Part shown: positions 9,728-45,083 of the stretch, one piece after another
Layout: the number at the start of each line of letters is the position of its first letter
Position numbering within the stretch: position 1 is the stretch's first letter
From: an uncultured Sphingomonadaceae bacterium
GTDB lineage: Bacteria > Pseudomonadota > Alphaproteobacteria > Sphingomonadales > Sphingomonadaceae
Assembly: GCA_937995515.1 (NCBI GenBank)
Contig: CALKJZ010000007.1
Coordinates: 12,004 to 76,003 of the forward strand
Reading direction: 5' to 3'
Length of the DNA: 64,000 bases
Notes under the pieces: generated by a model
The model's input: the letters and a program-made list of their open reading frames with translations, nothing else
Database searches by the model: none
What the model was told of the DNA's origin: nothing
Position numbers and translations under genes: made by a program

Positions 9728-9731
9728 GGCG

Positions 9732-10277: not shown

Positions 10278-10278
10278 G

Positions 10279-10710
10279 ATGCGCGGGCTGGGCCTCCTTG
10301 CTGCCCTGCTGCTCGCGGTGCTGCCCGCCCACGCCGTCGAGCCCGACGAGATGCTGGCCGACCCGGCGCTCGAGGCGCGCGCGCGGGCCATCTCCGCGGG
10401 TCTGCGCTGCGTGCAGTGCCAGAACCAGACCATCGACGAAAGCAACGCCCCGCTCGCGCGCGACCTGCGCCTTATCGTGCGCGAACGGCTGGAGGCGGGC
10501 GACAGCGACGCGGAAGTGATCGCCCATGTGCGCGCGCGCTATGGCGATTTCGTGCTCCTGAAGCCGCCGCTCAACGAGCAGACGCTGCTGATGTGGGCCG
10601 GCCCCTTCCTTGCGCTCCTCGGCGCGGGCGCCTTCCTCTTCTGGCGGATGCGGCGGCCGCCTGCCATGGACGAGGACGAGGCGGAGCTTCTGGAGCAGGA
10701 CAGGCCCTGA
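10279..10710 (+). CDS. ccmH: Cytochrome c-type biogenesis protein CcmH (CcmL)
   Basis: Has a signal peptide, the LRCVQCQNQTIDESNAP motif and a C-terminal TM helix. Starts 1 nt after the ccmG stop. Confidence 0.9.
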   Translation: MRGLGLLAALLLAVLPAHAVEPDEMLADPALEARARAISAGLRCVQCQNQTIDESNAPLARDLRLIVRERLEAGDSDAEVIAHVRARYGDFVLLKPPLNEQTLLMWAGPFLALLGAGAFLFWRMRRPPAMDEDEAELLEQDRP

Positions 10711-10711
10711 G

Positions 10712-11953: not shown

Positions 11954-11978
11954 GCGGGCCCGGCACCGGCCGCGCTCA
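11951..11978. terminator. GC-rich hairpin between convergent genes; both stop codons lie in the stem (possible bidirectional terminator)
   Basis: The sequence is tgagcgggcc-cggcacc-ggccgcgctca, a 10-bp stem with one bulge and a 7-nt loop. There is no U-tract. Confidence 0.4.
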
Positions 11979-12887: not shown

Positions 12888-14398
12888 TCGCCGAACGACC
12901 AGATGAGCCGCACCTCGCCGCCGATATTGTCGTAATCGACATAGGGCGCGCGCGTCGTGCGGCCGGTGTAGGAGAGCGCGCCCTCGAGCGTGAGCCCCTC
13001 GCGCAGGTCTGCCGTGGCGCCGGCGTTGGTGAAGGCCGAAATGGGCGCGCCAAGTGCAGCGCGCGCAAAGCTGCGCGTCTCCTTGCGCACGGGCCCGCCC
13101 AGCACCGGGTCGGGCGCCTTGTAGGTCAAGAAGCGCAGGTTTCCGGCCAGCGCCGAATAGGCGCCGCGGCCCAGCTCGGTGCGGAACGAGGCAGCAACCC
13201 CCGGCCCGGAATAGGCAAGCGGGCGATGGTCGGCATCCTTGTCCTCATAGGCCACTTCGCCCGCGATGGTGCTGCGGCCCGAAAGCCGGTGCGAGACCCC
13301 GGCCGAGACCGCGATCCGCGCGCCCGAGCGGGCGTCCTCGGCAAGTCCGGGCACGAGCCCCGCGAGCAGCGGCTCCTCGAACGACTGGTGCATGGCCTCG
13401 GCGGCCGCATCGAGCGCTGTCAGGTGGGTGAGTCGGTGCGCCAGCGCCAGCCGGCCGCCCACCTCGGTGAGATAGGGATCGCCGAACAGGGACACGTGCC
13501 TGAGCAGGCCTGCCACCGACCAGATCGTGCGCGCGCCGATCTCGCCTGAAAGCCCGAGCGAAAGATCGGCGCGCAGGGTCTCGAGGGGCGGGCCGGAGAG
13601 CTCCTTGCGCCCCTGGGCGGAGGCAAGGAGCGTGAGCACCGTGCGGCTGTCCTGCCCCAGCCTCCAGGCAACCCGAAGCCGCCCGCCGCCGCCGAAGCCG
13701 AGGCCATCGTCGGTTGGCCCGCTGCCGAGGCCCACATCGATGAGGCTTGCAAGCGCGCCGGTTGCGTTGCTGTCGTAAAGGAGGCCGAGGTTCGCCGAGC
13801 CCGAGACGCTGACCAGCCGGTCGCGCCGGGCGATCGCCCGGCGATACTTGGCCGCCTCGGCGCGCTGCAGCGCCGTCAGCTCCACATCGTCGAGCAGGTC
13901 GAGCTCGCGCGCGGCGCCCTGATGGTCCTCCATGCGATAAAGGATGATGGCATAGAAGAGCCGCGCGGCGTGCCAGTTGGGCTGTTTCAGCAGCAGGCGC
14001 TCGAGTGCTGCGGCTGCCGAAAGCAGATCGCCCTGCGCTGCGGAGCGGCGGGCGAACCCGATGTTGAGCTCCGGATCGTCGGGCGCGCGCAGCACCGTGT
14101 CGAACAATCGGTCTCCCGACCCGGAAATCACGATGTCGCGGCCGTCCTTGCGCGCTTCAAGCGTCGCCTCGATCGAGATCTCCTCGTCGCGGGTCTGCGG
14201 CCGGTCGAAGCCGGCGAACGGATCCTCCGCGCCCGGCGCCTGCGCCAGGGCGGCTGCGGCCCGGAGGGCGCATGCAAGGCAGGCGAGCGCGGGCGCGCCA
14301 CGCCGCCATCCGGGTCTGCTGGGCCGGGCTCGTTCCCCCACTGCACGATTCCTTGCCGTGTCAGCCGTCTGTTCATCGTGCATCGTGCCGTTGTTCAT
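12884..14398 (-). CDS. Outer-membrane protein: N-terminal TPR region + C-terminal beta-barrel (Slam/DUF560-like or NsrA-like architecture)
   Basis: I start at ATG 14398 (MNNGTMHDEQ...), but the start is uncertain and a later GTG is possible. A signal-like segment (APALACLACALRAAAALAQA) is followed by TPR-like helices (GDLLSAAAALERLLLKQPNWHAARLFYAIILYRMEDHQGAAREL). Alternating beta-strand patterns follow (SANLGLLYDSNATG...) up to the C-terminus (...GEVRLIWSFGE). The family assignment is from memory of the architecture, not from a search. Confidence 0.65.
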   Translation of the reverse strand: MNNGTMHDEQTADTARNRAVGERARPSRPGWRRGAPALACLACALRAAAALAQAPGAEDPFAGFDRPQTRDEEISIEATLEARKDGRDIVISGSGDRLFDTVLRAPDDPELNIGFARRSAAQGDLLSAAAALERLLLKQPNWHAARLFYAIILYRMEDHQGAARELDLLDDVELTALQRAEAAKYRRAIARRDRLVSVSGSANLGLLYDSNATGALASLIDVGLGSGPTDDGLGFGGGGRLRVAWRLGQDSRTVLTLLASAQGRKELSGPPLETLRADLSLGLSGEIGARTIWSVAGLLRHVSLFGDPYLTEVGGRLALAHRLTHLTALDAAAEAMHQSFEEPLLAGLVPGLAEDARSGARIAVSAGVSHRLSGRSTIAGEVAYEDKDADHRPLAYSGPGVAASFRTELGRGAYSALAGNLRFLTYKAPDPVLGGPVRKETRSFARAALGAPISAFTNAGATADLREGLTLEGALSYTGRTTRAPYVDYDNIGGEVRLIWSFGE

Positions 14399-14412
14399 GC
14401 GAGAGTGCAAGC

Positions 14413-16704
14413 ATGTGGGGCATGAACCTTCTCGAACCGCCCGCCTCCCGCCCGGCGGGGCGCGCACGGGCGCGCAGGTGGCAGGCGGTCGGCCGGGCGG
14501 CTGCAGGCGTCGCACCGGGGATCGCCATGACGCTCCTTGTCGCCCTCCTGCACTGGAGCGATCTCGGCCCGCTGCGCCAGCTGGGCCTCTTGCTGTTCGA
14601 TGCCTACCAGAGGGCCGCACCACGGCCCTATGAGACGGTGCCGGTGCGTATCGTCGATATCGACGACGAGACGATCGCACGCCATGGCCAGTGGCCCTGG
14701 CCACGGCTCGAGACGGCGCGGCTCACCGAGACGCTTGCGCACGCCGGGGCGGCGGCCATCGCCTTCGACATCGTCTTCTCCGAGCCGGACCGCACCTCGC
14801 CCGCGCGGGTGGCCGCCGTGCTGGCTGCCAATCCCGAGGCACAGGGCGATTTCGCCGAGGTGCGCGCGCTTGCCGACCATGATTCGATCTTTGCCGCAAC
14901 GCTTGCCCGATCGCCTGCCGTGCTCGGCTTCTTCCTCGCCCGCGAGTCCGGTGCACCCCCGCCCGAGCGGCACGGCGGAATCGCAGTGGCCGGCTCCATC
15001 CCCGACACCATCCCCCGGTTTTCGGGCACGATCAGCCCGCTCGACCAGCTGGCGGACAGCGCCGCCGGGACCGGCTTTCTCACCATGACCGGAGACCGCG
15101 ACGGCATCGTGCGGCGCGCCCCGCTCCTCGGCCGGGTGGGCGACGAGCTCGTGCCCGCCCTCTCGGTCGAGGCGCTGCGGGTGGCGCAGGGGGCGGGCGC
15201 AATCCTCGTGCGCGCCTCCGATGCCAGCGGCGAGATGGGCGCCCGCGGCGGCGCGTCCGTGGTGCAGCTGCGCGTGGGCGATTTCGTGATGCCAACCGAT
15301 GCCGGCGGCGAGCTGTGGATGCACTATACCGCCCCGGTCCCGGCACGCATCGTGCCGGCGTGGAAGCTGCTCGAAAATGCGCTCACCGAGGCGGAGCTGC
15401 GCGCGCTGTTCGAAGGCCATGTCGTCTTTATCGGCACCGGTGCGCAGGGGTTGCGCGATCTCGTCTCGACACCGGTGCGCGACCGCGAGCTCGGCGTGAT
15501 GGTGCATGCCCAGGCCGTCGAGCAGATGATTCTCGGCCGCTTTCTCACCCGGCCGGACTGGGCGACGGGTGCCGAGCGGGCGCTTTTGCTGCTGTTCGGT
15601 CTCGGGCTGGCCCTGCTGCTGCCGCGCCTCGGCGCGGTGCGCAGCGGCATCCTTGGCGGGTTCGCCCTTGCCGGCACCTTCGGGCTCTCGTGGCTGGCCT
15701 TCCGCCAGTCCGGCCTGCTGCTCGACCCGGTCGCGCCCGCGCTTGCCGCCTCGGCAAGCTATGTCGCGGTCACCGCCGTCAGCTTCTGGCGCGAGGAACG
15801 GGCGCGCGCCTACATCCGCAACGCCTTCGACCGCTATCTCTCGCCCGAACTTGTGGAGCGGATCGCAGCCGACCCCGGCCAGCTCGAGCTCGGCGGCGAG
15901 GATCGCGACATGACGGTGATGTTCCTCGACGTGCGCGGCTTCTCCCGCCTCTCCGAGCAGATGGGCCCGCGCGATGTTATCGCCTTTCTCGTCGAGTTCC
16001 TCACCCCGATGACCGACATCCTGCTCGCCCACAGGGCGACCATCGACAAGTATATCGGCGATGCGATCCTCGCCTTCTGGAACGCGCCCGTCGACGACCC
16101 GGACCATGTGGCAAACGCCGCGCGGGCGACCCTTGCGATGGTGGACCGGCTCGCCCAGCTCAACGCCGAGAAGGCCGGCGGGCCCGGCCCCTGGCCGGGC
16201 GAGGTGCGCATCGGCATCGGGCTTAACACCGGCCTGTGCTGTGTTGGCAACATCGGCTCCGCGCAGCGGCTCAACTATTCCCTCATCGGCGACACGGTGA
16301 ACCTTGCCAGCCGCATCGAGGGGCAGACGAAGATCTATGGCGTCACAATCGCGCTCGGCGAGGAGACGGCGCGGCGTCTTGAGGGCTTTGCCACCCTCGA
16401 GCTCGACCGGCTGCGCGTGATCGGGCGCGACCGGCCGGAGACAATCTTCGCCCTGCTGGGCGACGAGGAGCTCGCCCGATCGGAGGGGTTCCTCGCGTTC
16501 CGGGGGATCCATTGCGAAATGCTGCAGGCCTACCGCGCGCAGCAGTGGGCCGAGGCCCTGCAGCATCTCGAGCAACTTTCGGCCCGGGCGGAGCCGCTGG
16601 GGCTCGGGAAACTGGTCGATCTCTACCGGCGCCGGGTCGCGCGCTTCTCGGTGGATCCGCCCGGCGAGGGCTGGGACGGGGTGGCCGATGCCGAGACCAA
16701 GTGA
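14413..16704 (+). CDS. CHASE2 sensor domain-containing class III adenylate (or guanylate) cyclase
   Basis: Starts at ATG 14413 or 14422. TM1 (GIAMTLLVALLHW) is followed by a CHASE2-type periplasmic region (VRIVDIDDETIARHGQWPWPR...FDIVFSEPDR) and further TM helices. The cyclase domain follows (MTVMFLDVRGFS...IDKYIGDAILAFWNAP...IGLNTG...IGDTVNLASRIEG). Confidence 0.9.
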   Translation: MWGMNLLEPPASRPAGRARARRWQAVGRAAAGVAPGIAMTLLVALLHWSDLGPLRQLGLLLFDAYQRAAPRPYETVPVRIVDIDDETIARHGQWPWPRLETARLTETLAHAGAAAIAFDIVFSEPDRTSPARVAAVLAANPEAQGDFAEVRALADHDSIFAATLARSPAVLGFFLARESGAPPPERHGGIAVAGSIPDTIPRFSGTISPLDQLADSAAGTGFLTMTGDRDGIVRRAPLLGRVGDELVPALSVEALRVAQGAGAILVRASDASGEMGARGGASVVQLRVGDFVMPTDAGGELWMHYTAPVPARIVPAWKLLENALTEAELRALFEGHVVFIGTGAQGLRDLVSTPVRDRELGVMVHAQAVEQMILGRFLTRPDWATGAERALLLLFGLGLALLLPRLGAVRSGILGGFALAGTFGLSWLAFRQSGLLLDPVAPALAASASYVAVTAVSFWREERARAYIRNAFDRYLSPELVERIAADPGQLELGGEDRDMTVMFLDVRGFSRLSEQMGPRDVIAFLVEFLTPMTDILLAHRATIDKYIGDAILAFWNAPVDDPDHVANAARATLAMVDRLAQLNAEKAGGPGPWPGEVRIGIGLNTGLCCVGNIGSAQRLNYSLIGDTVNLASRIEGQTKIYGVTIALGEETARRLEGFATLELDRLRVIGRDRPETIFALLGDEELARSEGFLAFRGIHCEMLQAYRAQQWAEALQHLEQLSARAEPLGLGKLVDLYRRRVARFSVDPPGEGWDGVADAETK

Positions 16705-26304: not shown

Positions 26305-26321
26305 GGCGGGCCTTCCTTCGC

Positions 26322-28259: not shown

Positions 28260-29657
28260 ATGACGGGCCAGCCGTCGGCATCTTTGCAGGTCAAACCCGG
28301 CCGGGCGTGCAGGTCGGCCGTCTCCGGCCTTCTGGCCTTCGTCGCGGCGGCGCTGGCCGCCGCACCTCTTCCGGCCCAGGTGCACGAGGGCGTGGCGAGC
28401 TGCGGTGGGGCCACCTGCCATGGCCGCCAGGCTGCGACGGGCGCCGCGGTGCGGCAGAACGAGCTTTCCACCTGGCAGGATCCGGCAAGCCCGGCCGGCG
28501 CCCACAGCCGCGCCTTCCGCGTGCTGCTTGCGCCCGAAAGCGCCCGCATGGCCCGCCGGCTGGCGCTCGGCGCGGCCGAAGAGGCGCCGATGTGCCTCTC
28601 GTGCCACAGCGATTATGTGCCCGCGGCGCGCCGCGGCGCCCGCTTCCGGCTGGAGGATGGGGTGGGCTGCGAGGCCTGCCATGGCGGCTCCGGCGCGCGG
28701 CCCGGTGGCGCCCCCGGCTGGCTCGCCAGCCACGCCGCAGTCGGCAACAGCCATGCCGCCAATGTGGCGGCCGGCCTGTTCCCGGCCACAGACCTCATCG
28801 CGCGCGCGAACATGTGCCTCGACTGCCATTTCGGCAGCATCCGGCCCGGCCAGTTCGTCACCCACCGGATCATGGCGGCCGGCCATCCGCGGCTTACCTT
28901 CGAGCTCGATCTGTTCACCGCGCTGCAGGCGCACCACGACGAGGATGCCGATTACCGGGCGCGCAAGCCTGCCCATGGGGCGCTCAAGGCCTGGGCGGTC
29001 GGGCAGGCGCTGGCCTCGGCGCGCCAGCTGCGGCTGTTCGCCCAGCGCGGAACCGATGGCGCGCTGCCCGAGTTCAGCTTCTTCGACTGCCGCACCTGCC
29101 ACCGCACCTTCACCGACCAGCGCGGGCTGAAGCCGCTGTCGCGCGCGGGCCAGTGGCGCCCGCTTCCGGCCGGATTTCCCGCCTTTGCCGACGAGAATCT
29201 GATCCTGCTCGATGCGGCCGCCCGGGTGCTCGCAGCGGCCGAGGCGGGCGAGGTGCGCCAGCGTTCGGCGGCCTTCCACCGCGCCTTTGCGGAAAGCCGC
29301 CCGGCGGCCGAGGCGGCGGCCCTTGCCCTCGCCGAGAGCGCGGAGCGGGTCGCCCGCCGGGTCGCCGGCGCCCGCCTCGAGCCCGGCGCTGCGCTGCGGA
29401 TCGTCGCGGCGATCACCGAGCCGCAGCACCTCCAGCGCGTCTCCGAGTACCAGGGCGGGGCGCAGACGCTGATGGCGGTCGAGACGCTGGTCTCGGCGGC
29501 CGTCAGTTCGGGCCTCGTGTCCGAGGCGCGGGCGCGGGGCCTCAGGCCCGCGCTCGACGAGGCGCACGCGCTCCTCAAGGATGCCAACCGCTGGGACGAG
29601 GAGGCCTTTGCCCGGGCCATGATCCGGCTTGGAGCCGCCGCCCGGACCATGCTGTGA
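28260..29657 (+). CDS. Periplasmic multiheme c-type cytochrome (4 CxxCH + 1 CxxxxCH-like site) with C-terminal helical domain, 465 aa
   Basis: ATG 28260 is preceded by AAGGAGG...GGGGGA. It has a signal peptide (LLAFVAAALAAAPLPAQV). Heme motifs: CLSCH, CEACH, CLDCH and CRTCH, plus CGGATCH. The C-terminal half is Ala-rich and helical. Confidence 0.8.
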   Translation: MTGQPSASLQVKPGRACRSAVSGLLAFVAAALAAAPLPAQVHEGVASCGGATCHGRQAATGAAVRQNELSTWQDPASPAGAHSRAFRVLLAPESARMARRLALGAAEEAPMCLSCHSDYVPAARRGARFRLEDGVGCEACHGGSGARPGGAPGWLASHAAVGNSHAANVAAGLFPATDLIARANMCLDCHFGSIRPGQFVTHRIMAAGHPRLTFELDLFTALQAHHDEDADYRARKPAHGALKAWAVGQALASARQLRLFAQRGTDGALPEFSFFDCRTCHRTFTDQRGLKPLSRAGQWRPLPAGFPAFADENLILLDAAARVLAAAEAGEVRQRSAAFHRAFAESRPAAEAAALALAESAERVARRVAGARLEPGAALRIVAAITEPQHLQRVSEYQGGAQTLMAVETLVSAAVSSGLVSEARARGLRPALDEAHALLKDANRWDEEAFARAMIRLGAAARTML

Positions 29658-31585
29658 TGCGGCCCGCCTTGCCTGCTGCCGTGCTGGCCCTGCTGCTTGC
29701 CGGATGCGGCGGCGGCAGCGGGGAGGGCTCGCCAGGCAAGCCGCCGGCCGCTGCCCCCGTGCCGCCGCCGCCGGCGCCCGGCCCCGCGCGCCTGTTCACG
29801 GACCCGGCGCCCGAGTTCCTGACCGAGACGGATGTGCGCCAGATCATCGCGCAGGCGGCAGGCGAGGCGCTGGCGCGCAACCTGCCCGTGGTGATTGCCG
29901 TGACCGACCGGGTGGGCAATGTCCTTGCCGTCTTCCGCATGGCCGGTGCGCGCGCGACGGCGCGGCTGCGCGATGGCCCGGGCGGCAACTTCGACGCCCA
30001 GGGGGTCGAGGTGCCTGCCGAGGCGGCCGCCATCGCCAAGGCGATCACGGGCGCCTATCTGTCGTCGGCTGGCAATGCCTTTTCCACCCGCACGGCGAGC
30101 ATGATCGTGCAGGAGCATTTTCCGCCTTCGGCCGTGGCCCGGGGGCTCGAATCCGGCCCGCTGTTCGGCGTGCAGTTCAGCCAGCTGCCCTGTTCGGACG
30201 TGGCCGCGCGCCTGCCGGGCACCGGGGTTGGGCCGAAACGCTCGCCGCTGGGGCTGGCTGCCGATCCGGGTGGCTTCCCGCTCTACAAGGCCGGCGTGCT
30301 CGTGGGCGGCATCGGCGTGATGGGCGATGGCGACTATGGCTTCGACCCGGAGGTGCGCGACATCGACACCGACGACGAGGAGCTGATCGCGCTGGCCGGC
30401 ACCTCGGGCTTTGCTGCCCCGCGCGAGATCGAGGCCGACCGCATCTCCGTCGATGGCACCACGCTGCGCTTCCGCGACCGGGGCACCGAGGCGCTGCGTT
30501 CCAGCCCGGCCTCGCCGCCGCCGTTCGCATCGCTTGCCGGCGCGCTCGTGGTGGTGCCGGGCTACAGCGATGGCAGCCTGCGCGCCGGCACGGCCTATGG
30601 CAGCGAGGCATCGGGCATCCGCCGCGCCCGTGCCGACGAGAGCGCCAACCCCGATCACTATGTGCTGAGCGACGGCACGGGCCTGCGGCGGTTCGAGCCG
30701 GCGCCGGCAAGCGATGGCGGCCTGACAGCCGCCGAGGTGCGGCGGCTGCTCGATTCCGCCTTCGAGGTGATGGCGCGTGCCCGCGCGCAGATCCGCCGCC
30801 CGCTCGAGAGCCGGGCCCAGGTCTCGATTGCGGTTGTCGATACCAATGGCCGGGTGCTGGGCCTCGTGCGCGCGCCCGATGCGCCGGTCTTCGGCATCGA
30901 CGTGGCCGTGCAGAAGGCGCGCTCGGCGATGTTCCTGTCGTCTGCCAGGGCCGCCTCCGAGCTCGGGGCGCACCCGAACCCGGCCGTGGCCGGCGTGGTG
31001 GCCGCCACCCGCACCTTCCTCGCCGATCCGCAGGCGCTCACCGGCCAGACGGCCATTTCGGCGCGGGCCATCGGCAACCTTGCCCGGCCCTTCTTCCCCG
31101 ATGGCGAGCTCGGCCGGCCCCCCGGGCCGTTCGGCCGGGCAATCGGCAGCTTTTCGCCCTTTGCCAACGGCCTGCAATCCGCGCTCGTCATCGGCGACAT
31201 CGCCGCCCATCTCGGCTTTCTCGCCGGCCAGAACCCCGACCCGCCGCCGGGCTGCGGCGGCCTGCCGCCCGCCGACGAAGGGCGCGGGCGGCTGGCCAAC
31301 GGGCTCCAGATCTTCCCCGGCGGGATCCCGCTCTATCGCCATGGGGTGCTGGTGGGCGGAATCGGCGTCTCCGGCGACGGGATCGACCAGGATGACATGG
31401 TGGCCTTCCTCGGCACCGACGGGGTCGCCGGCACGGGCGGCGTCGGCAACGCCGCCCCGGCAATCCGCTCGGACCGGGTGGAGGTGCCGCTCGCCGACGG
31501 CCGCCGCGTGCGGCTCCGCTGGATTGTCTGCCCCTTTGCGCCCTTCCTCGGCGATGCGGCGCAGAATGTGTGCGCGGGGCGGTGA
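29657..31585 (+). CDS. Lipoprotein with two GlcG/HbpS-like (DUF336) domains, 642 aa
   Basis: ATG 29657 overlaps the upstream TGA (TGATG). It has a lipobox (LLLAGCGG) and a Pro/Ala linker. Two DUF336-type cores are present: IIAQAAGEALARNLPVVIAVTDRVGNVLAVFRMAGA...AIAKAITGAYL and RAQVSIAVVDTNGRVLGLVRAPDAPVFGIDVAVQKARSAMFL. Confidence 0.75.
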   Translation: MRPALPAAVLALLLAGCGGGSGEGSPGKPPAAAPVPPPPAPGPARLFTDPAPEFLTETDVRQIIAQAAGEALARNLPVVIAVTDRVGNVLAVFRMAGARATARLRDGPGGNFDAQGVEVPAEAAAIAKAITGAYLSSAGNAFSTRTASMIVQEHFPPSAVARGLESGPLFGVQFSQLPCSDVAARLPGTGVGPKRSPLGLAADPGGFPLYKAGVLVGGIGVMGDGDYGFDPEVRDIDTDDEELIALAGTSGFAAPREIEADRISVDGTTLRFRDRGTEALRSSPASPPPFASLAGALVVVPGYSDGSLRAGTAYGSEASGIRRARADESANPDHYVLSDGTGLRRFEPAPASDGGLTAAEVRRLLDSAFEVMARARAQIRRPLESRAQVSIAVVDTNGRVLGLVRAPDAPVFGIDVAVQKARSAMFLSSARAASELGAHPNPAVAGVVAATRTFLADPQALTGQTAISARAIGNLARPFFPDGELGRPPGPFGRAIGSFSPFANGLQSALVIGDIAAHLGFLAGQNPDPPPGCGGLPPADEGRGRLANGLQIFPGGIPLYRHGVLVGGIGVSGDGIDQDDMVAFLGTDGVAGTGGVGNAAPAIRSDRVEVPLADGRRVRLRWIVCPFAPFLGDAAQNVCAGR

Positions 31586-33381
31586 GGCGCGCATTCCTCG
31601 CCCTGCTCCTCGCCCCGGCCGTGGCCGGGGCGCAGGAGGCGGAACGGCCGGAGGCCGGCCCGCCCATCGAGCGGCGCGTGCCCGGCATCCGCGCGGAGGT
31701 GGAAGCGCCGGTGCCGCCGACCGACAATCCAGGCGCCGTGCCACCGCCCGAGGCCTGGCCGGCCGACCATCTCCCCGTCCCCGACCGCTGGCGGATCCTC
31801 GACAGCCTCGAGGCGTGGAAAATCCCCTATTTCCGCGACGTGCTCGGGGTGCGGCGCGCGCGCACCCTCGACCCCTACAACCAGAACCTCCTGAAGGGCG
31901 ACAAGCCGCTTCCCGGCACGCAGGACTGGTTCCTCCTGCTTGCTGCGATCTCGGACACCGTCCTCGAGCCGCGCACCTTCCCCATTCCCGTCGGCATCCA
32001 GACCAGCGAGCGGCCAGACGAGCTCGACGTGTTCGGCGGCACGCGCTCCACCGTCGTTGCGCAGACCGTCATCCTTTCCGCCTCGTTGTTCCAGGGCTCC
32101 ACCCTGTTCAAGCCGGTGGAGCAGGAGCTGAAGGTCGCGCTGGCCTTCCAGTTCAACCATGTGACCGTGCCCGAGCGGCGGGTGCTGCTGGTCGAGCCGA
32201 GCCGCGGGCCGGAGCGCTCGGATGCCTTCGTCGGCGTGCAGGAATTGTTCTACGACCGGCACCTGCGCGATGTCTCCGACCGCTATGATTTCGATTCCGT
32301 CCGCATCGGGATCCAGCCGTTCACCGCCGATTTCCGCGGCTTCCTCTTCCAGGACACCCCGCTCGGCATCCGCCTGTTCGGCACCCGCGACGACAACCGC
32401 GTGCAATACAATCTCGCCGCCTTCGTGCGGCTGGAGAAGGACAGCAACACCGGCCTCAACGCCATCCTGCGCAGCCCACGGCAGGATTATGTGCTGGCAG
32501 CCAACCTCTACCGGCAGGATTTTCCGTGGCCCGCGCTCACCTCGCAGGTGGTCGTGCTGTGGAACATCAACCGCGAGGCCGACGATGTGCAGGTGGATAC
32601 CAACGGCTTTCCCGTCCGGCCCGCGCTCATCGGCAACCTGCGCGGGCGCGATTATGACGCCGTCTATCTTGGCTACAACGCCGACGGGCGGATCGGCCGC
32701 CTGAACCTGTCCGCCTCGGCCTATCTGCTGCTTGGCGAGGAGCGCAACAGCGTGTTCACCGGCGATCGGGCGAAGATCCGTGCCGCCTTCCTCGCCGCCG
32801 AGCCCTCGATCGATTCCAACTGGGTGCGCCTGCGCGGCAGCCTGCTGTTTGCAAGCGGCGATGGCAACCCGTTCGATTCCACCCATCAGGGCTTTGATGC
32901 CGTGTTCGAAAACCCGCTCTTTGCCGGGGCGGACACGAGCTTCTGGATCCGCCAGTCGATCCCCCTTGCCGGTGGCGGCCGGGTGATTGCCATCAATGGC
33001 CGCAACGGCATTCTGAACACGCTGCGCCCGTCGAAGGAGCAGGGCCAGTCCAGCTTCGTGAACCCGGGCACGATCCTCGTGGGCGCAGGCGCCGATTTCG
33101 ACGTTCTTCCGACGCTTCGCATTTCGGCCAATGCGAACCATCTGTGGTTCCACCGCACGGCGGTGCTGGAAACCCTGCGCCAGCAGGGCGGGCTTCAACC
33201 CGAGATCGGCTTTGATCTTTCTGCCGCGGCAATCTTCCGGCCGTTCATGCACCAGAATGTCGTGCTGCGCGGCTCGGCTGCGGTGCTGGTGCCGGGCCGT
33301 GGCTTCCGGCAGCTGTTCGTGGCCGAGAACCGCCGCCGGGCCTTCACATCGGTCCTCCTCAACCTCGTGCTGAGCTACTGA
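31570..33381 (+). CDS. Predicted outer-membrane beta-barrel protein (about 600 aa), family not recognised
   Basis: The start is GTG 31570 or GTG 31582; the latter overlaps the upstream stop as GTGA. It has a signal peptide (FLALLLAPAVAGAQE). Long stretches show alternating hydrophobic/polar strand patterns with Gly/Asn/Asp turns. The C-terminus is aromatic (...VLLNLVLSY). Confidence 0.6.
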   Translation: MRGAVRRAFLALLLAPAVAGAQEAERPEAGPPIERRVPGIRAEVEAPVPPTDNPGAVPPPEAWPADHLPVPDRWRILDSLEAWKIPYFRDVLGVRRARTLDPYNQNLLKGDKPLPGTQDWFLLLAAISDTVLEPRTFPIPVGIQTSERPDELDVFGGTRSTVVAQTVILSASLFQGSTLFKPVEQELKVALAFQFNHVTVPERRVLLVEPSRGPERSDAFVGVQELFYDRHLRDVSDRYDFDSVRIGIQPFTADFRGFLFQDTPLGIRLFGTRDDNRVQYNLAAFVRLEKDSNTGLNAILRSPRQDYVLAANLYRQDFPWPALTSQVVVLWNINREADDVQVDTNGFPVRPALIGNLRGRDYDAVYLGYNADGRIGRLNLSASAYLLLGEERNSVFTGDRAKIRAAFLAAEPSIDSNWVRLRGSLLFASGDGNPFDSTHQGFDAVFENPLFAGADTSFWIRQSIPLAGGGRVIAINGRNGILNTLRPSKEQGQSSFVNPGTILVGAGADFDVLPTLRISANANHLWFHRTAVLETLRQQGGLQPEIGFDLSAAAIFRPFMHQNVVLRGSAAVLVPGRGFRQLFVAENRRRAFTSVLLNLVLSY

Positions 33382-33383: not shown

Positions 33384-36300
33384 ATGCGCCGGGCGGCCTC
33401 CTTCCTTCTCCTGCTCCTGTGGATCTCGGCGCCCGCAGGCCTCCGGGCGGCAGGCGAGGAGCGGCCGGTTTCCCGCACCTACGTCTTCACCCCGCCCGCG
33501 CCCCGTTCCCAGACCTGGGCCGAGGCAGAGGCGAAATCCGCCGGCTGCGAGACCTGCCACACGGCGACCGACCACCGCACCATGCACGCTTCGCCGGCGG
33601 TCGTGCTCGGCTGCACCGATTGCCACGGCGGCGATGCCGGCGTGCGCGTGCCGCCCGGCACGGCGCCCGATGCGCCTGCCTACCGAGCGGCGCTTGCGCG
33701 CGCGCACGTGCTGCCGCGCTTTCCCAGGGCGTGGAACTGGCCCTCCTCGGCCAATCCGAAGCGGAGCTACGCGCTTCTCAACCGGGAAGCGCCGGAGTTC
33801 GTGCGGTTCGTCAACCCATCCGACTACCGGGCCGCGCGGGCGGCCTGCGGCGCCTGCCACCTCGCCGTGATCGAGGCGGCCGAGCGCTCGCTGATGGCAA
33901 CGGGCGCCATGCTCTGGGGCGGGGCAGCCTACAACAACGGCATCCTCCCGTTCAAGCGCACCCTCGTCGGGGAGGCCTACACGCCCGATGGCAGGCCGGC
34001 GCGCATCGTCTCGCCCGGGCCGGTCTCCGATGCGGCGCGGGCGCGCGGCGTGCTCGAGGCGCTCTATCCGCTGCCGACGTGGCATGTGACGGCGCCCGCC
34101 GACGTGTTCCGCGTGTTCGAGCGCGGGGGGCGCAACATTAACTCCAACTTCCCCGAAATCGGCATCCCCAACGTGCTGGGGCAGATCCAGCGGCTGGAGG
34201 AGCCGGGCCGGCCCGACATCCGGCAGTCGAACCGCGGGCCGGGCACGGGCCAGCGGGTCGCCATCCCGGTGCTCAACATCCACAAGACGCGCCTCAACGA
34301 TCCCTTTACCTGGTTCATGGGCACCAACGACCAGCCCGGAGACTATCGCCACTCCGGATGCGCCGCCTGCCATGTCGTCTATGCCAACGACCGGGAGCCG
34401 CGCCATTCCCTCACCTGGGCGCGCTACGGCCGCGACGGCGAGACGGCGACCGCCGACCCGACCATTCCGAGGGGCCGCAGCGGCCACCCGGTGCGCCATG
34501 CCTTCACACGCGCCATCCCCACCAGCCAGTGCATGAACTGCCACATGCACCAGCCCAACATCTTCCTGAACTCCTATCTCGGCTATACCATGTGGGATTA
34601 TGAGGTGGACGCGCCCGTCATGTGGCCGGAGCGGCAGGCCTATCCCGATGCGGCGGCGATGCGGAAGGTGCTCGACCGCAATCCGGAAGGCGCCTCGGTG
34701 CGCGGCCGGTGGGCAGACCTCGATTTCCTGCGCAATGTCTACGAGCTCAACCCCCAGCTCCGGCACACCCAGTTTGCCGACTATCACGGGCATGGCTGGA
34801 ACTTCCGCGCCATCCTGAAACGCGACCGCGAGGGCCATCTCCTCGATTCCGAGGGCAACCGGGTCGACCCGGGGGATCCGGAGCGCTGGCGGCGGGCGGG
34901 CGAGGGCCAGTTCGTGCCGCCCGGCATCAACCCGGGCAAGACGGTGCACATGATGGACATCCACGCCGAGGTGGGCATGCAGTGCGCCGACTGCCATTTC
35001 GCGCAGGACAGCCACGGCACCGGCAACATCCACGGCGAGGTGGCCGACGCCGTCGAGATCGCCTGCAGGGACTGCCACGGCACGGCCGATGCGCTGCCGA
35101 CGCTGCGCACCTCGAATGTCGCCGCCCGGCCGGGGGGCACCGATCTCAGCCTGTTGCGCAACCCCGACGGCCAGCGCCGGTTCGAGTGGACCATGGAGGG
35201 CGGCCGCCGCGTGCTGCTGCAGCGGTCGATCATCGATCCGGGCCTCGTCTGGCGGGTGAGCCTCGTGCGCGACTCGGTCGATCCAGCCTCGCCGGAGTTC
35301 AACCTGAAGGCCGCCCGTGCCAAGCTGATGGGCCGGACCGGTGCCGAGACCGGCCGCTTCCTGTTCGGCGCCGGCGTGCCGGCCGCCGAGCGGGCGCACC
35401 GCGACGATTCGATGACCTGCTACACCTGCCACCTCGCCTGGACGACGAGCTGCGGCGGCTGCCATCTTCCCATCGAGGCCAACTGGAAGACCGAGGTGCA
35501 CCGCTACGAGGGCAAGACCACGCGCAACTGGGCCAGCTACAACCCGCAGGTGGTGCGCGACGACATGTTCCAGCTCGGCCTGCACCAGACCAGCAAGGGC
35601 AACATCATCGCGCCCGTGCGCTCCTCCTCGGCGCTGGTGCTGACCTCGACCAACGCCAACCGCGAGCGCATCTACGTGCAGCAGCCGCCAATCTCGGCGA
35701 TCGGCTTTTCCTCCCAGGCCTTCGCCCCGCACTTCCCGCACACGGTCCGGAAAACCGAGACCAAGACCTGCACGGACTGCCACCTCTCGGCTGCCGACGA
35801 CAACAATGCCTGGATGGCGCAGCTGCTGCTGCAGGGCACCAACTTCGTGAACTTCATCGGCCTTTATGCCTACACGGGCGGCGAGGGCGGGCTTTCGGCG
35901 ATCCGCGTGACCGAGTTTTCCGAGCCGCAGGCCGTGCTCGGCTCCTACCTCCACCGCTATGCCTACCCGGACTACTGGCGCTGGTTTGTCGGGCAGCAGG
36001 GCCGCGAACTGAAGACCGCCCGCCGCGGCCGCGCGGTCATCGGGCGCTTTTCCAGTGCCACCGACAGCGCCGAGGAGTTCCGCAACATCCACAAGCAGAC
36101 GCAAGGCGCGGTCGGCTGTCTGCAGCACCGCGGCGAATATCTGTTCGTGGCCGAGGGCGCGGGCGGCTTGCGCGCCTATGACATCGCAAGCATTGCAAAC
36201 AAGGGCGTCTCGGAACCGATCCTGACTGGCCCCTTCTCGCGCCTCGGCCACCAGACGCACGTGCCCTCGCGCCATGCCACCTGCGTTGCGCTTCCCACCA

Positions 36301-37286
36301 ACCAGCCGATCGCGCCCTCCCGCAACACGCCCGAGATGCGCGCGCTGAACGCCGAGCAGCCGTTCCACCCGATCTATCACTATGCCGTCGTCACCGATGC
36401 CGAGGAGGGGCTCATCCTCGTCGATGTCGACACGCTCGCCGACCGCGAGCCGCGCAACAACAGGCTCCGCCGCGCGCTCACCTGGAACCCCGACGGCCTG
36501 CTCCGCGGCGCGCGCCACATCACCCTTGCGGGCTCCGTCGCCTATGTGGCGGCCGATGCCGGACTGGTGGTGGTCGACCTTGCGGACCCGCTCGCGCCGC
36601 GGGTTGCAGCACGCGTGCCGCTTCCCGGCCTGCGCGCCACCGCGCTCCAGTTCCGCTATCTCTTCGCCACCACCGCGCGCGGGCTCGAGGTGCTCGATGC
36701 GACAGACCTGCACCAGCCGGTGCCCGTGCCCGGCGCGCTGCTTCCGCTTGCCGATGCGCGCCGTGTCTATGTCGCGCGCACCTATGCCTATGTCGCCGCC
36801 GGCGCACAGGGGCTGGTGATTGCCAATGTCACCAACCCCGAACGGCCGCGGCTGCACAGGGCGGTCACCCTCGAGGGGGGCCTCGATGATGCCTCCGACG
36901 TGGTGGTGGCCTCCACCAATGCATCGCTCTTCGCCTATGTGGCCGACGGCCGCAACGGGCTGAAGGTGCTGCAGCTGACCTCGCCCGACAGCCAGCCGAA
37001 CTTCTACGGCTTCTCGCCCGCCCCCGTGCCCGAGCTCATCGCATTTGCACGCACGCCCTGGCCCCTGCGCGCCGTCTCCAAGGGGCTGGACCGCGACCGG
37101 GCGGTGGACGAGACGGGCGGGCAGATCGCCATCTTCGGCCGCTATGGTTCAAGGCCCTTCACCGCTGCCGAGATGCAGCGCTTCTACCGGAACCGGCAGG
37201 GCCTCGTGTGGAAGGTGCGCGACGAGGCCGACATGGCCGACTGGGTGGGCCCGCGCCCGCCGCTTCGGACGGCCGCTGCGCCCTAG
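33384..37286 (+). CDS. Secreted decaheme c-type cytochrome fused to a C-terminal LVIVD-repeat beta-propeller (1300 aa)
   Basis: The ATG lies 2 nt after the upstream stop, and a signal peptide is present (FLLLLLWISAPAGLRAAG). Ten CxxCH motifs span about 33540-35790: CETCH, CTDCH, CGACH, CAACH, CMNCH, CADCH, CRDCH, CYTCH, CGGCH, CTDCH. At least 6 LVIVD-like blades follow at about 36100-37050: GLRAYDIASIANKG, GLILVDVDTLADREP, GLVVVDLADPLAP, GLEVLDATDLHQP, GLVIANVTNPERP and GLKVLQLTSPDSQP. Confidence 0.85.
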   Translation: MRRAASFLLLLLWISAPAGLRAAGEERPVSRTYVFTPPAPRSQTWAEAEAKSAGCETCHTATDHRTMHASPAVVLGCTDCHGGDAGVRVPPGTAPDAPAYRAALARAHVLPRFPRAWNWPSSANPKRSYALLNREAPEFVRFVNPSDYRAARAACGACHLAVIEAAERSLMATGAMLWGGAAYNNGILPFKRTLVGEAYTPDGRPARIVSPGPVSDAARARGVLEALYPLPTWHVTAPADVFRVFERGGRNINSNFPEIGIPNVLGQIQRLEEPGRPDIRQSNRGPGTGQRVAIPVLNIHKTRLNDPFTWFMGTNDQPGDYRHSGCAACHVVYANDREPRHSLTWARYGRDGETATADPTIPRGRSGHPVRHAFTRAIPTSQCMNCHMHQPNIFLNSYLGYTMWDYEVDAPVMWPERQAYPDAAAMRKVLDRNPEGASVRGRWADLDFLRNVYELNPQLRHTQFADYHGHGWNFRAILKRDREGHLLDSEGNRVDPGDPERWRRAGEGQFVPPGINPGKTVHMMDIHAEVGMQCADCHFAQDSHGTGNIHGEVADAVEIACRDCHGTADALPTLRTSNVAARPGGTDLSLLRNPDGQRRFEWTMEGGRRVLLQRSIIDPGLVWRVSLVRDSVDPASPEFNLKAARAKLMGRTGAETGRFLFGAGVPAAERAHRDDSMTCYTCHLAWTTSCGGCHLPIEANWKTEVHRYEGKTTRNWASYNPQVVRDDMFQLGLHQTSKGNIIAPVRSSSALVLTSTNANRERIYVQQPPISAIGFSSQAFAPHFPHTVRKTETKTCTDCHLSAADDNNAWMAQLLLQGTNFVNFIGLYAYTGGEGGLSAIRVTEFSEPQAVLGSYLHRYAYPDYWRWFVGQQGRELKTARRGRAVIGRFSSATDSAEEFRNIHKQTQGAVGCLQHRGEYLFVAEGAGGLRAYDIASIANKGVSEPILTGPFSRLGHQTHVPSRHATCVALPTNQPIAPSRNTPEMRALNAEQPFHPIYHYAVVTDAEEGLILVDVDTLADREPRNNRLRRALTWNPDGLLRGARHITLAGSVAYVAADAGLVVVDLADPLAPRVAARVPLPGLRATALQFRYLFATTARGLEVLDATDLHQPVPVPGALLPLADARRVYVARTYAYVAAGAQGLVIANVTNPERPRLHRAVTLEGGLDDASDVVVASTNASLFAYVADGRNGLKVLQLTSPDSQPNFYGFSPAPVPELIAFARTPWPLRAVSKGLDRDRAVDETGGQIAIFGRYGSRPFTAAEMQRFYRNRQGLVWKVRDEADMADWVGPRPPLRTAAAP

Positions 37287-38924: not shown

Positions 38925-39053
38925 CGCCTGTCTCCCCATCTCCCCGACGGTGGCACAATAGCTGCAAAAGGGCCGGCTGAACATGCCCGGTGCTTGTGCG
39001 GATGCTCCGGGGCCGCCACACATGGCGCAGGCACGGATGATGAGGGCAAGGCC

Positions 39054-40580: not shown

Positions 40581-40620
40581 CGGGGCGGCGCCCATTGCGC
40601 GAGCGGGGCTGCAATCCGAC

Positions 40621-45079: not shown

Positions 45080-45083
45080 GGGC

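What the first reader, a model, noticed from the sequence alone, without database searches (positions are those of the whole stretch)
33384..37286. Covalent fusion of a decaheme module with an LVIVD-repeat beta-propeller
Seen: ten CxxCH motifs are spread over about 750 residues (about 33540-35790). At least six blade-like units with the LVIVD-type signature follow at about 36100-37050: G-L-x-[VI]-[VLA]-D/N-[VLIA]-x-[DNST]-x-x-x-P.

Established: LVIVD repeats (Pfam PF08309) occur in bacterial and archaeal surface proteins of unknown function.

Inference: a heme wire attached to a propeller platform suggests a substrate- or surface-binding redox protein. From memory I know of no characterised example of this architecture. 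The heme spacing is sparse (about 75 residues per heme) compared with MtrA/OmcA-type proteins. That hints at an enzyme-like fold rather than a pure wire.
Basis: partly seen in the sequence, partly recalled or inferred. Interest (0 to 1): 0.7.

Follow-up and report, generated by a model that had tools for sequence, protein, structure and literature searches.

The report
Decaheme cytochrome fused to beta-propeller
This gene encodes a real ten-heme cytochrome fused to a beta-propeller; it is the end piece of a widespread, conserved and uncharacterised gene set that appears to carry electrons across the cell envelope of many ordinary aerobic bacteria.

Summary
ORF 33384-37286 (+) encodes a 1300-aa secreted protein with exactly ten CxxCH motifs, against about 0.01 expected by chance. 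It also has six LVIVD-type units (Pfam PF08309, E=1.7e-14). AlphaFold models these units as a very confident beta-propeller packed against the heme module (pTM 0.89).

The fusion is not rare. More than 7,000 protein clusters and at least 525 species representatives carry it, with all ten heme motifs invariant. They span Alpha-, Beta- and Gammaproteobacteria, Acidobacteriota, KSB1 and others.

The gene always follows an AlgE-like outer-membrane barrel of about 18-20 strands. In Pseudomonadota a double HbpS-like lipoprotein gene precedes the barrel gene. A c554-like pentaheme cytochrome is encoded nearby.

In most loci, and at 2355-7476 of this window, there is also an input module with three proteins:
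- an FAD/NAD(P)H flavoprotein with cNMP-binding and 4Fe-4S domains;
- a five-helix membrane protein with two invariant W-x3-H-x13-H motifs, inferred to bind two b hemes;
- an FHA-anchored decaheme cytochrome.

I read the protein as the terminal redox subunit of this envelope electron-transfer system. No member is characterised. One 2026 MAG survey noted the "large decaheme + ~20-strand porin" pair without mentioning the propeller. Substrate, direction of electron flow and cellular location remain inferred.

The parts
33384..37286 (+). g4: 1300-aa precursor with a Sec-type signal peptide (aa 1-~22), a decaheme c-type module (aa ~23-880) and an LVIVD beta-propeller with a conserved C-terminal tail (aa ~905-1290).
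   Evidence: More than 7,000 near-full-length homologues.
33546..35783 (+). Span holding the ten CxxCH heme-attachment motifs. First bases: 33546, 33612, 33846, 34359, 34530, 34983, 35064, 35418, 35451, 35769.
   Evidence: All are invariant in alignments A1 and A2; in some homologues the third motif is Cx4CH. Shuffle control.
36117..37034 (+). Six LVIVD-type blade units: aa 912-952, 992-1034, 1045-1084, 1085-1125, 1126-1166 and 1175-1217. Flanking strands and the conserved tail 'GLDRDRAVDExGxQ..FGRxGSRPF' (aa 1234-1258) probably close the ring as a seventh blade. That closure is inferred from the strand pattern only.
   Evidence: Pfam PF08309, unit listing, DSSP strands and pLDDT mostly 90-98 over aa ~970-1270, tail conservation.
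31570..33381 (+). g3: 603-aa outer-membrane beta-barrel of the AlgE/OprD structural class (~18-20 strands). Its stop codon lies 2 nt before the g4 start. In every locus with enough upstream sequence it sits immediately upstream of g4.
   Evidence: AF2 model pLDDT 73.7. Foldseek to AlgE E=2e-15, TM 0.60-0.68 normalised to AlgE. Synteny. hhalign E=1.5e-92 and 3.3e-89 to the Acidobacteria and KSB1 neighbours.
29657..31585 (+). g2: 642-aa predicted lipoprotein (LLAGC lipobox) with a duplicated HbpS-like/GlcG (DUF336) domain. Its ATG overlaps the g1 stop codon (TGATG).
   Evidence: Conserved next to g3. RefSeq name 'heme-binding protein'. No conserved His was found, so heme binding is not established.
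28260..29657 (+). g1: 465-aa c554-family cytochrome with five conserved heme motifs (Cx4CH plus 4 CxxCH) and an N-terminal signal or anchor.
   Evidence: Pfam PF13435 E=2.1e-9, motifs, conservation in 61 orthologues. It lies upstream in Sphingomonadales and just downstream of g4 in Beta- and Gammaproteobacteria.
5014..7476 (-). B1: 820-aa cytoplasmic flavoprotein. It has a TrxR/YpdA-like FAD-NAD(P)H oxidoreductase domain, two cNMP-binding domains and a HydN/DmsB-like 4Fe-4S ferredoxin domain.
   Evidence: Found within 10 kb of g4 in 51 of 86 loci.
4151..4987 (-). B2: ~270-aa inner-membrane protein with five helices, two W-x3-H-x13-H motifs and an SGxxG motif. It is inferred to be a di-heme b transmembrane electron carrier. 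The start codon is uncertain (4987 or 4960).
   Evidence: The four histidines are 100% conserved in 49 orthologues. Weak match to PF01292 cytochrome b561, E=4e-3. The signature is the one defined for the PCC3/PCC4 'IMP' in PMC5566968.
2355..4154 (-). B3: 599-aa protein with a cytoplasmic FHA domain, one transmembrane helix and a periplasmic decaheme cytochrome.
   Evidence: Ten CxxCH and ten further conserved His in 53 orthologues.
7727..11953 (+). ccmF, ccmG, ccmH and ccmI/cycH: System I cytochrome c maturation genes, lying between the two halves of the system in this genome.
   Evidence: Adjacency is not conserved elsewhere: ccmF appears in 3 loci.
11976..16704 (.). Candidate regulatory genes: a FecR-domain protein (11976-12887, -), an unassigned 606-aa ORF (12884-14704, -) and a CHASE2 adenylate/guanylate cyclase (14272-16704, +). 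The last two ORF calls overlap, so their starts are uncertain.
   Evidence: The CHASE2 cyclase lies near g4 in 18 loci, including Acidobacteria locus L084. cNMP-binding domains sit on B1. The functional link is inferred.

Best explanation
g4 is a Sec-exported decaheme c-type cytochrome whose last hemes are held rigidly against a 6-7-bladed LVIVD beta-propeller. It is the terminal, outer-membrane-proximal redox subunit of a conserved envelope electron-transfer system.

Proposed path:
1. NAD(P)H reduces FAD and then the 4Fe-4S clusters of B1 (cytoplasm, gated by cyclic nucleotide).
2. Electrons pass to two b hemes in B2 (inner membrane).
3. They continue to the decaheme B3 (periplasm, FHA-anchored).
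4. They continue to the pentaheme g1.
5. They enter the ten hemes of g4 at its N-terminal end.
6. They reach an acceptor bound at the propeller.

I place g4 on the periplasmic side, docked to the AlgE-like barrel g3. By analogy with the 26-strand MtrB, that barrel is too narrow to sheathe a heme wire. It therefore most likely passes a soluble substrate, product or shuttle across the outer membrane.

Shown here: domain content, heme-motif and histidine conservation, the barrel and propeller folds, and synteny.

Inferred: the order of carriers, outward direction of flow, periplasmic location, that the propeller is the acceptor site, and the identity of the acceptor (unknown).
For: - Ten invariant heme motifs in 146 homologues.
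- Compact two-domain model, pTM 0.89, with a propeller fold.
- g2-g3-g4 are contiguous in that order in the loci with enough upstream sequence, and g1 is adjacent.
- g3 is conserved at ~40% identity into Acidobacteria and KSB1 and has an AlgE-like fold.
- B1, B2 and B3 lie within 10 kb of g4 in 51, 50 and 56 of 86 loci respectively, across phyla, and are present in this window.
- B2 has four invariant transmembrane histidines arranged as H-x13-H twice.
- B3 has ten conserved extra histidines for ten hemes, which is wire-like.
- Variants P0137 and P0176 carry extra hemes only at the N-terminus of the core, consistent with electron entry there.
- A MAG survey independently noted the large decaheme, a ~20-strand porin and an FNR-like gene together (PMC13264449).
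Against: - No experiment exists on any member.
- No multimer model of g3-g4 was made.
- B1 could be a regulator rather than the electron donor, and B2 could instead exchange electrons with quinones, as He et al. 2017 propose.
- LVIVD repeats are typical of cell-surface proteins. One homologue is named LPXTG-anchored and another ends in an LPTG-like tail, which favours a surface location.
- In this genome the two halves of the system are 21 kb apart.
Confidence: 0.4

Rival explanations
1. Classical porin-cytochrome conduit for extracellular electron transfer. In this reading g4 sits on the cell surface like MtrC/OmcA, and its propeller binds minerals, humics or partner proteins. g3 would be the porin through which electrons cross the outer membrane.
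For: - The gene order (periplasmic MHCs, barrel, large MHC) resembles PCC clusters. Two papers read such clusters this way (PMC13264449; PMC5566968).
- Separate NHL propellers accompany MHCs in other putative EET clusters.
- There is a sub-threshold match to MtrC/MtrF domain II/IV.
Against: - g3 matches the 18-strand AlgE/OprD class, not MtrB; no MtrB appears in the top 50 hits.
- No small MtrA-like cytochrome that could thread a barrel is present.
- g4 has no lipobox.
- PF22113 scores 14.4 bits against a cut-off of 30.
- Hosts are mostly aerobic heterotrophs.
Confidence: 0.25
2. Electron flow runs inward. g4 would be an oxidase for an extracellular or periplasmic reductant such as Fe(II), Mn(II), reduced sulfur or nitrogen species, or reduced organics. 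Electrons would pass through g1 and B3 to B2, and from there to the quinone pool or respiratory chain, as HAO passes electrons to c554.
For: - g1 belongs to the c554 family.
- He et al. 2017 proposed inward flow to quinones through the same type of inner-membrane protein in PCC3/PCC4 of iron oxidisers.
- There are weak profile hits to the NrfA/ONR enzyme family.
- There is a surplus of conserved histidines in g4.
Against: - B1, an NAD(P)H-type flavoprotein with Fe-S clusters, lies directly upstream of B2 in most loci. That fits an electron donor better than an acceptor in heterotrophs.
- Most hosts are not known lithotrophs. In one survey only 3 of 36 PCC-bearing MAGs, counting all PCC types, had carbon fixation (PMC13264449).
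Confidence: 0.2
3. g4 is a true multiheme enzyme of the NrfA/ONR/OTR/HAO kind, with one open-coordination catalytic heme. The propeller would shape the substrate channel, as in cytochrome cd1 or hydrazine synthase. It would act on a small soluble molecule admitted by g3. This overlaps the best explanation but adds catalysis at a heme.
For: - Profile matches to octaheme nitrite reductase (E=1.5e-4) and NrfA (E=4e-3).
- Highly conserved non-heme motifs, for example LWGxAxYNNG..P.K (aa 176-191) and FADYHGHGW (aa 464-472).
- Rigid domain packing.
- Sequence conservation of 46-72% across phyla.
Against: - The matches cover only two short di-heme stretches of ~45-60 residues.
- There is no CxxCK motif.
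- Enough conserved His and Met residues exist for all ten hemes to be six-coordinate.
- No heme-domain hit appears in the top 50 Foldseek results, which are all propellers.
Confidence: 0.2

Closest known systems
'Group 1' porin-cytochrome clusters of Sterkfontein MAGs (FEMS Microbiol Ecol 2026, PMC13264449)
   Same: The paper describes a large decaheme gene of 4-5 kb next to a ~20-strand porin, with a ferredoxin-NADP reductase-like gene nearby in 7 of 11 clusters. One of my related loci, L031 (Sphingosinicella sp. SAR43), has an isolate name in that study's SAR/SAW style and may derive from it; I did not verify this.
   Different: The paper gives only a genomic description. It has no propeller or LVIVD annotation ('propeller' occurs 0 times). 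It does not describe the di-heme-b protein, the HbpS-like lipoprotein or the c554-like partner, and it reports no function.
PCC4 (and the inner-membrane protein of PCC3/PCC4) of He et al. 2017, PMC5566968
   Same: - B2 has five helices, W-x3-H-x13-H on helices 3 and 5, and SGxxG on helix 4, exactly as defined there.
- PCC4 subgroup II has a PF13247 Fe-S gene upstream of that protein, as B1 has here.
- PCC4 also has a porin and periplasmic multiheme cytochromes, including a decaheme.
   Different: PCC4 is described with 4-, 5- and 10-heme cytochromes and no second large decaheme or propeller. The paper's tables are held only as images, so identity with this system could not be tested. PCC3 cytochromes have 21-85 hemes and very large porins.
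MtrCAB / OmcA outer-membrane conduit (Shewanella)
   Same: It includes a decaheme cytochrome of similar heme density. It has paired CxxCH motifs, which g4 also has at aa 679 and 690. It is a barrel-plus-cytochrome gene cluster.
   Different: - There is no MtrA-type threaded cytochrome.
- The barrel is AlgE-like with ~18-20 strands, not 26.
- g4 is not a lipoprotein.
- PF22113 is below threshold.
- g4 has a propeller instead of the beta-barrel domains I and III.
Cytochrome-plus-propeller enzymes (cytochrome cd1 nitrite reductase, hydrazine synthase, quinohemoprotein dehydrogenases)
   Same: A c-type cytochrome domain is rigidly attached to a beta-propeller that forms the active site. cd1 is among the Foldseek hits (1dy7, E=1.2e-6).
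   Different: Those enzymes carry one or two hemes c and a specific propeller cofactor (heme d1, PQQ) or propeller heme. No cofactor-binding signature was identified here. The propeller match is generic: WD40, YWTD, AztD and BamB score equally.
Separate NHL/beta-propeller proteins in putative EET clusters (Tenderia Uet, Acidobacteriota 'EET1', Desulfovibrio ferrophilus)
   Same: A secreted propeller is genetically coupled to multiheme cytochromes and a porin.
   Different: In those clusters the propeller is a separate NHL/DUF5128 protein, and the porin is MtrB-like. Here the propeller is of LVIVD type and is covalently fused to the cytochrome.

Membership tests
Multiheme c-type cytochrome | Several CxxCH heme-attachment motifs in an exported protein, conserved in homologues. 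| tested here: met
   Ten motifs, invariant in 14 and in 146 homologues. N-terminal signal peptide. ccm maturation genes are in the window. Heme attachment itself was not testable.
LVIVD repeat / beta-propeller (Pfam PF08309) | Profile match above the Pfam gathering score, and a propeller fold. | tested here: met
   53.3 bits against a cut-off of 20.2. PF08309 is precomputed on all 120 listed homologues in each of two searches. The AF2 propeller blocks over aa ~970-1270 have pLDDT mostly 90-98. Foldseek probability 1.00 to propellers.
MtrC/OmcA outer-surface decaheme family | Match to the MtrC/MtrF domain II/IV profile above threshold. | tested here: not met
   PF22113 scores 14.4 bits against a cut-off of 30, E=0.029.
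MtrC/OmcA outer-surface decaheme family | Lipoprotein signal, and a partner pair made of an MtrB-type ~26-strand barrel and an MtrA-type periplasmic decaheme. | tested here: not met
   There is no Cys near the signal-peptide cleavage region. The partner barrel matches AlgE/OprD 18-strand porins. No ~300-aa MtrA-like gene is in the cluster.
NrfA / octaheme nitrite reductase / HAO-type multiheme enzymes | Family-level sequence or fold match over the catalytic core, with a catalytic heme that has an open or unusual axial position (for example CxxCK). | tested here: inconclusive
   Profile-versus-PDB hits at E=1.5e-4 (TvNiR) and 4e-3 (NrfA) cover only two short di-heme segments. There is no CxxCK. 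Axial ligation could not be assigned without model coordinates.
ExtM (NCBIfam NF040943, Geobacter selenite/tellurite operon cytochrome) | Score above the curated equivalog cut-off. | tested here: not met
   74 bits against a cut-off of 800.
PCC3/PCC4-type inner-membrane di-heme-b protein (for B2) | Five transmembrane helices, W-x3-H-x13-H on helices 3 and 5, and SGxxG on helix 4 (PMC5566968). | tested here: met
   The motifs are read directly in B2. The four histidines are 100% conserved in 49 orthologues, and G130 and G133 of SGxxG are >=95% conserved. Heme b binding itself was not testable.
AlgE-like / OprD-like 18-strand outer-membrane barrel (for g3) | Barrel fold match to solved members. 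| tested here: met
   Foldseek to AlgE E=2e-15, TM 0.60-0.68 normalised to AlgE, followed by OccK/OccD porins. There is no Pfam hit, so sequence-family membership is not shown.

The most novel reading that the evidence does not exclude
The system would be a cyclic-nucleotide- and phospho-threonine-gated envelope electron-export machine built like a split NADPH oxidase. Its parts would be an NAD(P)H flavoprotein with Fe-S clusters, a di-heme-b membrane protein and 25 c-type hemes. The terminal decaheme-propeller would be a previously unknown kind of periplasmic multiheme enzyme or shuttle reductase. Its substrate or product would cross the outer membrane through a dedicated AlgE-like channel. 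Such a system would give common aerobic soil and water heterotrophs (sphingomonads, Caulobacterales, Acidobacteriota) an unrecognised way to dump or deliver reducing power outside the cytoplasm.
Probability: 0.3. Interest if true: 0.85.

Novelty: new variant of a known kind. Interest (0 to 1): 0.62.

Why it matters
Multiheme electron conduits are understood almost entirely from a few metal-respiring anaerobes. This family is very large, strongly conserved across at least seven named phylum-level groups, and sits in everyday aerobic heterotrophs, yet it is annotated only as "hypothetical", "LVIVD repeat" or "multiheme cytochrome". If it exports or imports electrons, that would change how redox exchange between aerobic bacteria and their surroundings (iron, manganese, humics, oxygen radicals) is viewed. 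It would also add a new structural solution: a heme chain fused to a propeller, paired with a narrow barrel and apparently fed by an NAD(P)H-type flavoprotein. The system occurs in cultured, genetically tractable genera such as Sphingobium, Novosphingobium, Sphingopyxis and Qipengyuania, so the question can be tested directly.

Tried and rejected
- Sequence search of g4, g3 and g1 against PDB chains gave no significant hit.
- Foldseek of the g4 model was swamped by generic propellers, so the fold of the heme module could not be classified. Model coordinates are not exposed, so I could not measure heme-site geometry, count blades directly or map invariant residues.
- Eight literature searches found no characterised member. 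The Tenderiales LVIVD protein is a separate, heme-free protein. The peat 'EET1' cluster uses a separate NHL propeller and an MtrB-like porin. FoxY is unrelated. PCC3 is unrelated in heme number and porin size.
- An apparent g3-g4 'Rosetta-stone' fusion (P0236) is a frameshift-riddled read-through and was rejected.
- Apparent heme-poor or propeller-less representatives (P0164, P0190) align in broken pieces and were not trusted.
- The two-partner-secretion pair next to the cluster was considered as a core component. It was rejected because it recurs in only about 10 loci.
- ccm adjacency was rejected as a conserved feature because ccmF appears in only 3 loci.
- Supplementary tables of He et al. 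2017 are held only as images, so identity with PCC4 could not be settled.

Full report
**1. The observation**

The window has ~71% G+C throughout. ORF 33384..37286 (+) has the codon-position GC pattern of a real gene, 0.68/0.52/0.90. It translates to 1300 aa with a hydrophobic N-terminal signal sequence.

It contains exactly ten CxxCH motifs, at aa 55, 77, 155, 326, 383, 534, 561, 679, 690 and 796. These use 20 of its 22 cysteines. Shuffling the residues 20,000 times gave a mean of 0.013 motifs and never more than one.

Six units of the type [YF]-A-[YF]-V-A-x(2-4)-G-L-x-[VI]-[VLA]-[DN] lie at aa 912-1217, nt 36117-37034. Pfam LVIVD (PF08309) is matched at 53.3 bits against a cut-off of 20.2.

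**2. Structure**

- The AlphaFold2 model has mean pLDDT 83.4 and pTM 0.89. Ten-residue pLDDT blocks are mostly 90-98 over aa ~970-1270.
- The strand pattern gives six four-stranded blades that coincide with the six LVIVD units.
- Extra strands before the first unit, together with the strongly conserved tail (aa 1234-1258), probably close the ring as a seventh blade. This is my inference from the strand list.
- The high pTM for a 1200-residue two-domain chain means the propeller is modelled in a fixed position against the heme module, not on a flexible tether.
- A beta-sheet insert (aa ~687-782) lies between hemes 9 and 10. One loop (aa 237-291) is unstructured in the monomer model.
- Foldseek against the PDB returned only beta-propellers (LRP6 YWTD, AztD, WD40 proteins, BamB, cytochrome cd1) at E~1e-7. 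The fold is confirmed, but nothing specific is learned from it, and the heme module was not classified.
- Coordinates are not exposed, so heme geometry was not examined.

**3. Homologues**

- The protein has more than 7,200 relatives among 90%-identity clusters. Nearly all of the 120 listed are full-length (~1290-1410 aa) and carry PF08309. They are ~70% identical across Sphingomonadales, and the closest is Thermaurantiacus at 87-100%.
- A profile search added relatives at 46-64% identity from Acidobacteriota, KSB1, Calditrichota, Wallbacteria, Methylomirabilales and Desulfobacterota.
- The heme module alone finds 2,863 representatives of 50%-identity clusters, 603 of them at E<=1e-30.
- All ten heme motifs are invariant in both alignments. 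The third motif is Cx4CH in some members.
- About 14 further histidines are conserved: H68, H108, H341, H368, H372, H389, H468, H470, H522, H527, H544, H672, H786 and H868. Several methionines, including M171, are conserved too. All hemes could therefore be six-coordinate, with histidines to spare.
- The propeller carries many invariant polar residues, among them E918, D933, K940, E991, D1005, D1020, N1025, N1026, N1035, R1091, R1237, R1239, D1242 and Q1247; E1008 is nearly invariant.
- Source names are only 'hypothetical protein', 'LVIVD repeat protein' or 'multiheme c-type cytochrome'.

The architecture is therefore common, but no function has been assigned to it.

**4. Immediate context**

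g4 is the last gene of a tightly packed four-gene unit on the + strand.
- **g1** (28260-29657) is a c554-family cytochrome with five conserved heme motifs.
- **g2** (29657-31585) has an ATG that overlaps the g1 stop. It is a lipoprotein with a duplicated HbpS-like/DUF336 domain.
- **g3** (31570-33381) ends 2 nt before g4. It has no Pfam match.

The AF2 model of g3 is a beta-barrel. Its best structural matches are the alginate exporter AlgE (E=2e-15, TM 0.60-0.68 normalised to AlgE), followed by 18-strand OccK/OccD porins.

tblastn over 83 related loci gave these results:
- g2, g3 and g4 are contiguous in that order wherever the contig reaches far enough, apart from L016, where g2 was not detected between g1 and g3.
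- g1 lies upstream in Sphingomonadales.
- g1 lies immediately downstream of g4, on either strand, in most other Alpha-, Beta- and Gammaproteobacteria loci.

The barrel is conserved at ~40% identity in the Acidobacteria and KSB1 loci, again directly upstream of g4 (hhalign E=1.5e-92 and 3.3e-89).

**5. A second module**

Loci from distant phyla and from Sphingobium showed further recurrent neighbours. The same genes are in this window on the - strand.
- **B1** (5014-7476) has a TrxR/YpdA-like FAD-NAD(P)H oxidoreductase domain, two cNMP-binding domains and a HydN/DmsB-like 4Fe-4S domain.
- **B2** (~4151-4987) has five hydrophobic helices, W-x3-H-x13-H twice, and SGxxG. It has a weak cytochrome b561 match. 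Its four histidines are 100% conserved in 49 orthologues.
- **B3** (2355-4154) has a cytoplasmic FHA domain, one transmembrane helix and ten CxxCH motifs, with exactly ten further conserved histidines.

B1, B2 and B3 lie within 10 kb of g4 in 51, 50 and 56 of 86 loci respectively, although many contigs are short. In other phyla B1 is split into a flavoprotein with a cNMP domain and an Fe-S protein with a cNMP domain.

A CHASE2 adenylate/guanylate cyclase (14272-16704) and a FecR-domain protein (11976-12887) lie between the two modules here. The cyclase recurs near g4 in 18 loci, including an Acidobacteria locus. ccmFGHI (7727-11953) also lies between the modules, but that adjacency is not conserved.

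**6. How it most likely works**

The parts list reads as a chain from the cytoplasm to the outer membrane:
1. an NAD(P)H-type flavoprotein with Fe-S clusters;
2. a di-heme-b membrane protein of the ferric-reductase/NOX-like H-x13-H type;
3. a membrane-anchored periplasmic decaheme;
4. a pentaheme;
5. the decaheme-propeller, next to a barrel.

Variants with extra hemes carry them at the N-terminus of the g4 core: P0137 has 18 extra motifs followed by the full core, and P0176 is similar. That fits electron entry at the N-terminal end, with the propeller at the far end.

From my own knowledge, MtrB needs 26 strands to sheathe MtrA. An 18-20-strand AlgE/OprD-like barrel is unlikely to hold a heme wire. 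I therefore favour a periplasmic g4 docked to g3, with g3 passing a soluble substrate, product or shuttle.

The cNMP-binding domains on B1, the nearby cyclase and the FHA domain on B3 suggest that signalling switches the flow on or off.

The domain content, conservation and synteny are shown by the analysis. The order of carriers, the direction of flow, the location of g4 and the acceptor are inferred. I put about 0.4 on this reading. The alternatives, scored separately and partly overlapping, are:
- a surface-exposed MtrC-like terminal reductase in a classical porin-cytochrome conduit (0.25);
- inward flow from an oxidised substrate (0.2);
- a true multiheme enzyme with a catalytic heme (0.2).

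**7. Comparison with what is known**

- No PDB chain matches g4 by sequence. A profile of the family gives only weak hits to octaheme nitrite reductase (E=1.5e-4) and NrfA (E=4e-3), over the heme 1-2 and heme 6-7 segments.
- NCBIfam ExtM scores 74 bits against a cut-off of 800. The MtrC/MtrF domain scores 14.4 against 30. Neither membership is met.
- He et al. 2017 (PMC5566968) defined an inner-membrane protein of 'PCC3/PCC4' clusters by five helices, two W-x3-H-x13-H motifs and SGxxG. B2 fits this definition. PCC4 subgroup II also has a PF13247 Fe-S gene upstream of that protein, as B1 has here.
- PCC4 is described with 4-, 5- and 10-heme cytochromes and no propeller. Its tables are held only as images, so I could not test identity with this system.
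- A 2026 MAG survey (PMC13264449) describes 'group 1' clusters with a large 4-5 kb decaheme next to a ~20-strand porin, and an FNR-like gene nearby in 7 of 11. My locus L031 (Sphingosinicella sp. SAR43) has an isolate name in that study's naming style and may come from it; this was not verified. That paper does not mention a propeller and offers no function.
- Other putative EET clusters pair cytochromes with separate NHL propellers.
Typical multiheme cytochromes have ~60-70 +/- 30 residues per heme (Sharma 2010, as cited in PMC5566968).

**8. Verdict**

The finding is real and correctly described. The fusion belongs to a very large, strongly conserved and experimentally untouched family. That family is the terminal component of a conserved, multi-gene envelope redox system. 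A survey has noticed the gene pair but has not analysed it. I rate it a new variant of a known kind (multiheme envelope electron-transfer systems), with interest 0.62.

Noticed in passing
window 17695-28100 (- strand): A two-partner-secretion pair lies divergent from g1. It comprises a ShlB/FhaC-type TpsB (about 26322-28100) and a giant ORF of ~2,900-3,100 aa with no Pfam domain. Similar giant Gly/Thr/Ser-rich ORFs, with or without a TpsB, sit next to the cytochrome cluster in about 10 other Sphingomonadales/Caulobacterales loci (for example L003, L009, L014, L025, L028, L045, L089) but not elsewhere.
   Followed up: partly
window 51340-52815 (- strand): A BCCT betaine/carnitine/choline transporter gene is split into three consecutive ORFs covering profile positions 8-139, 174-314 and 319-483. 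It is either a pseudogene or the result of assembly frameshifts.
   Followed up: no
window 11976-16704: A FecR-domain protein, an unassigned 606-aa ORF and a CHASE2 adenylate/guanylate cyclase lie here. ORF calls 12884-14704 (-) and 14272-16704 (+) overlap by ~430 nt, so at least one start is wrong. A FecR + CHASE2-cyclase pair also lies upstream of the g4 homologue in Acidobacteria locus L084.
   Followed up: partly
window 2355-4154 (- strand); L085 2926-6200: The inner-membrane-anchored decaheme B3 carries a cytoplasmic FHA (phospho-threonine-binding) domain. In the KSB1 locus, FHA domains occur instead on a separate protein and on the flavoprotein. A Ser/Thr kinase gene lies nearby in L085 and L087.
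   Followed up: no
P0137 and P0176 (representatives): Family members carry extra N-terminal heme arrays. P0137 has 28 CxxCH in 1648 aa, made of 18 extra motifs plus the complete decaheme-propeller core. P0176 has about 6 extra motifs before a truncated core.
   Followed up: partly
P0236 (representative): A 1284-aa 'protein' joins the g3 barrel C-terminus to g4. It is full of Arg-rich out-of-frame stretches, so it is a frameshifted read-through gene call and not a real fusion.
   Followed up: yes
window 36020-36095 (g4 aa ~880-905): A ~22-residue insertion (RGRAVIGRFSSATDSAEEFRNI) sits between the heme module and the first blade. Within the 14-sequence alignment A1 it occurs only in this protein and the Sphingoaurantiacus homologue. 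It is modelled with low confidence.
   Followed up: no
L089 (Sphingobium herbicidovorans pMSHV) and 12 other plasmid records: In Sphingobium and Sphingopyxis the whole cluster lies on 0.4-1.3 Mb replicons catalogued as plasmids (megaplasmids or secondary chromosomes). Two of them are typed as conjugative.
   Followed up: no
window 37572-47981 and 49861-50433: The surroundings are ordinary: glutamate dehydrogenase (-), a beta-lactamase-fold protein (+), SelO (+) and Mrp/Mnh-type antiporter subunits (-). There is also a 190-aa ORF that matches only part of the FGE-sulfatase domain (positions 82-238 of 255) and may be truncated.
   Followed up: no
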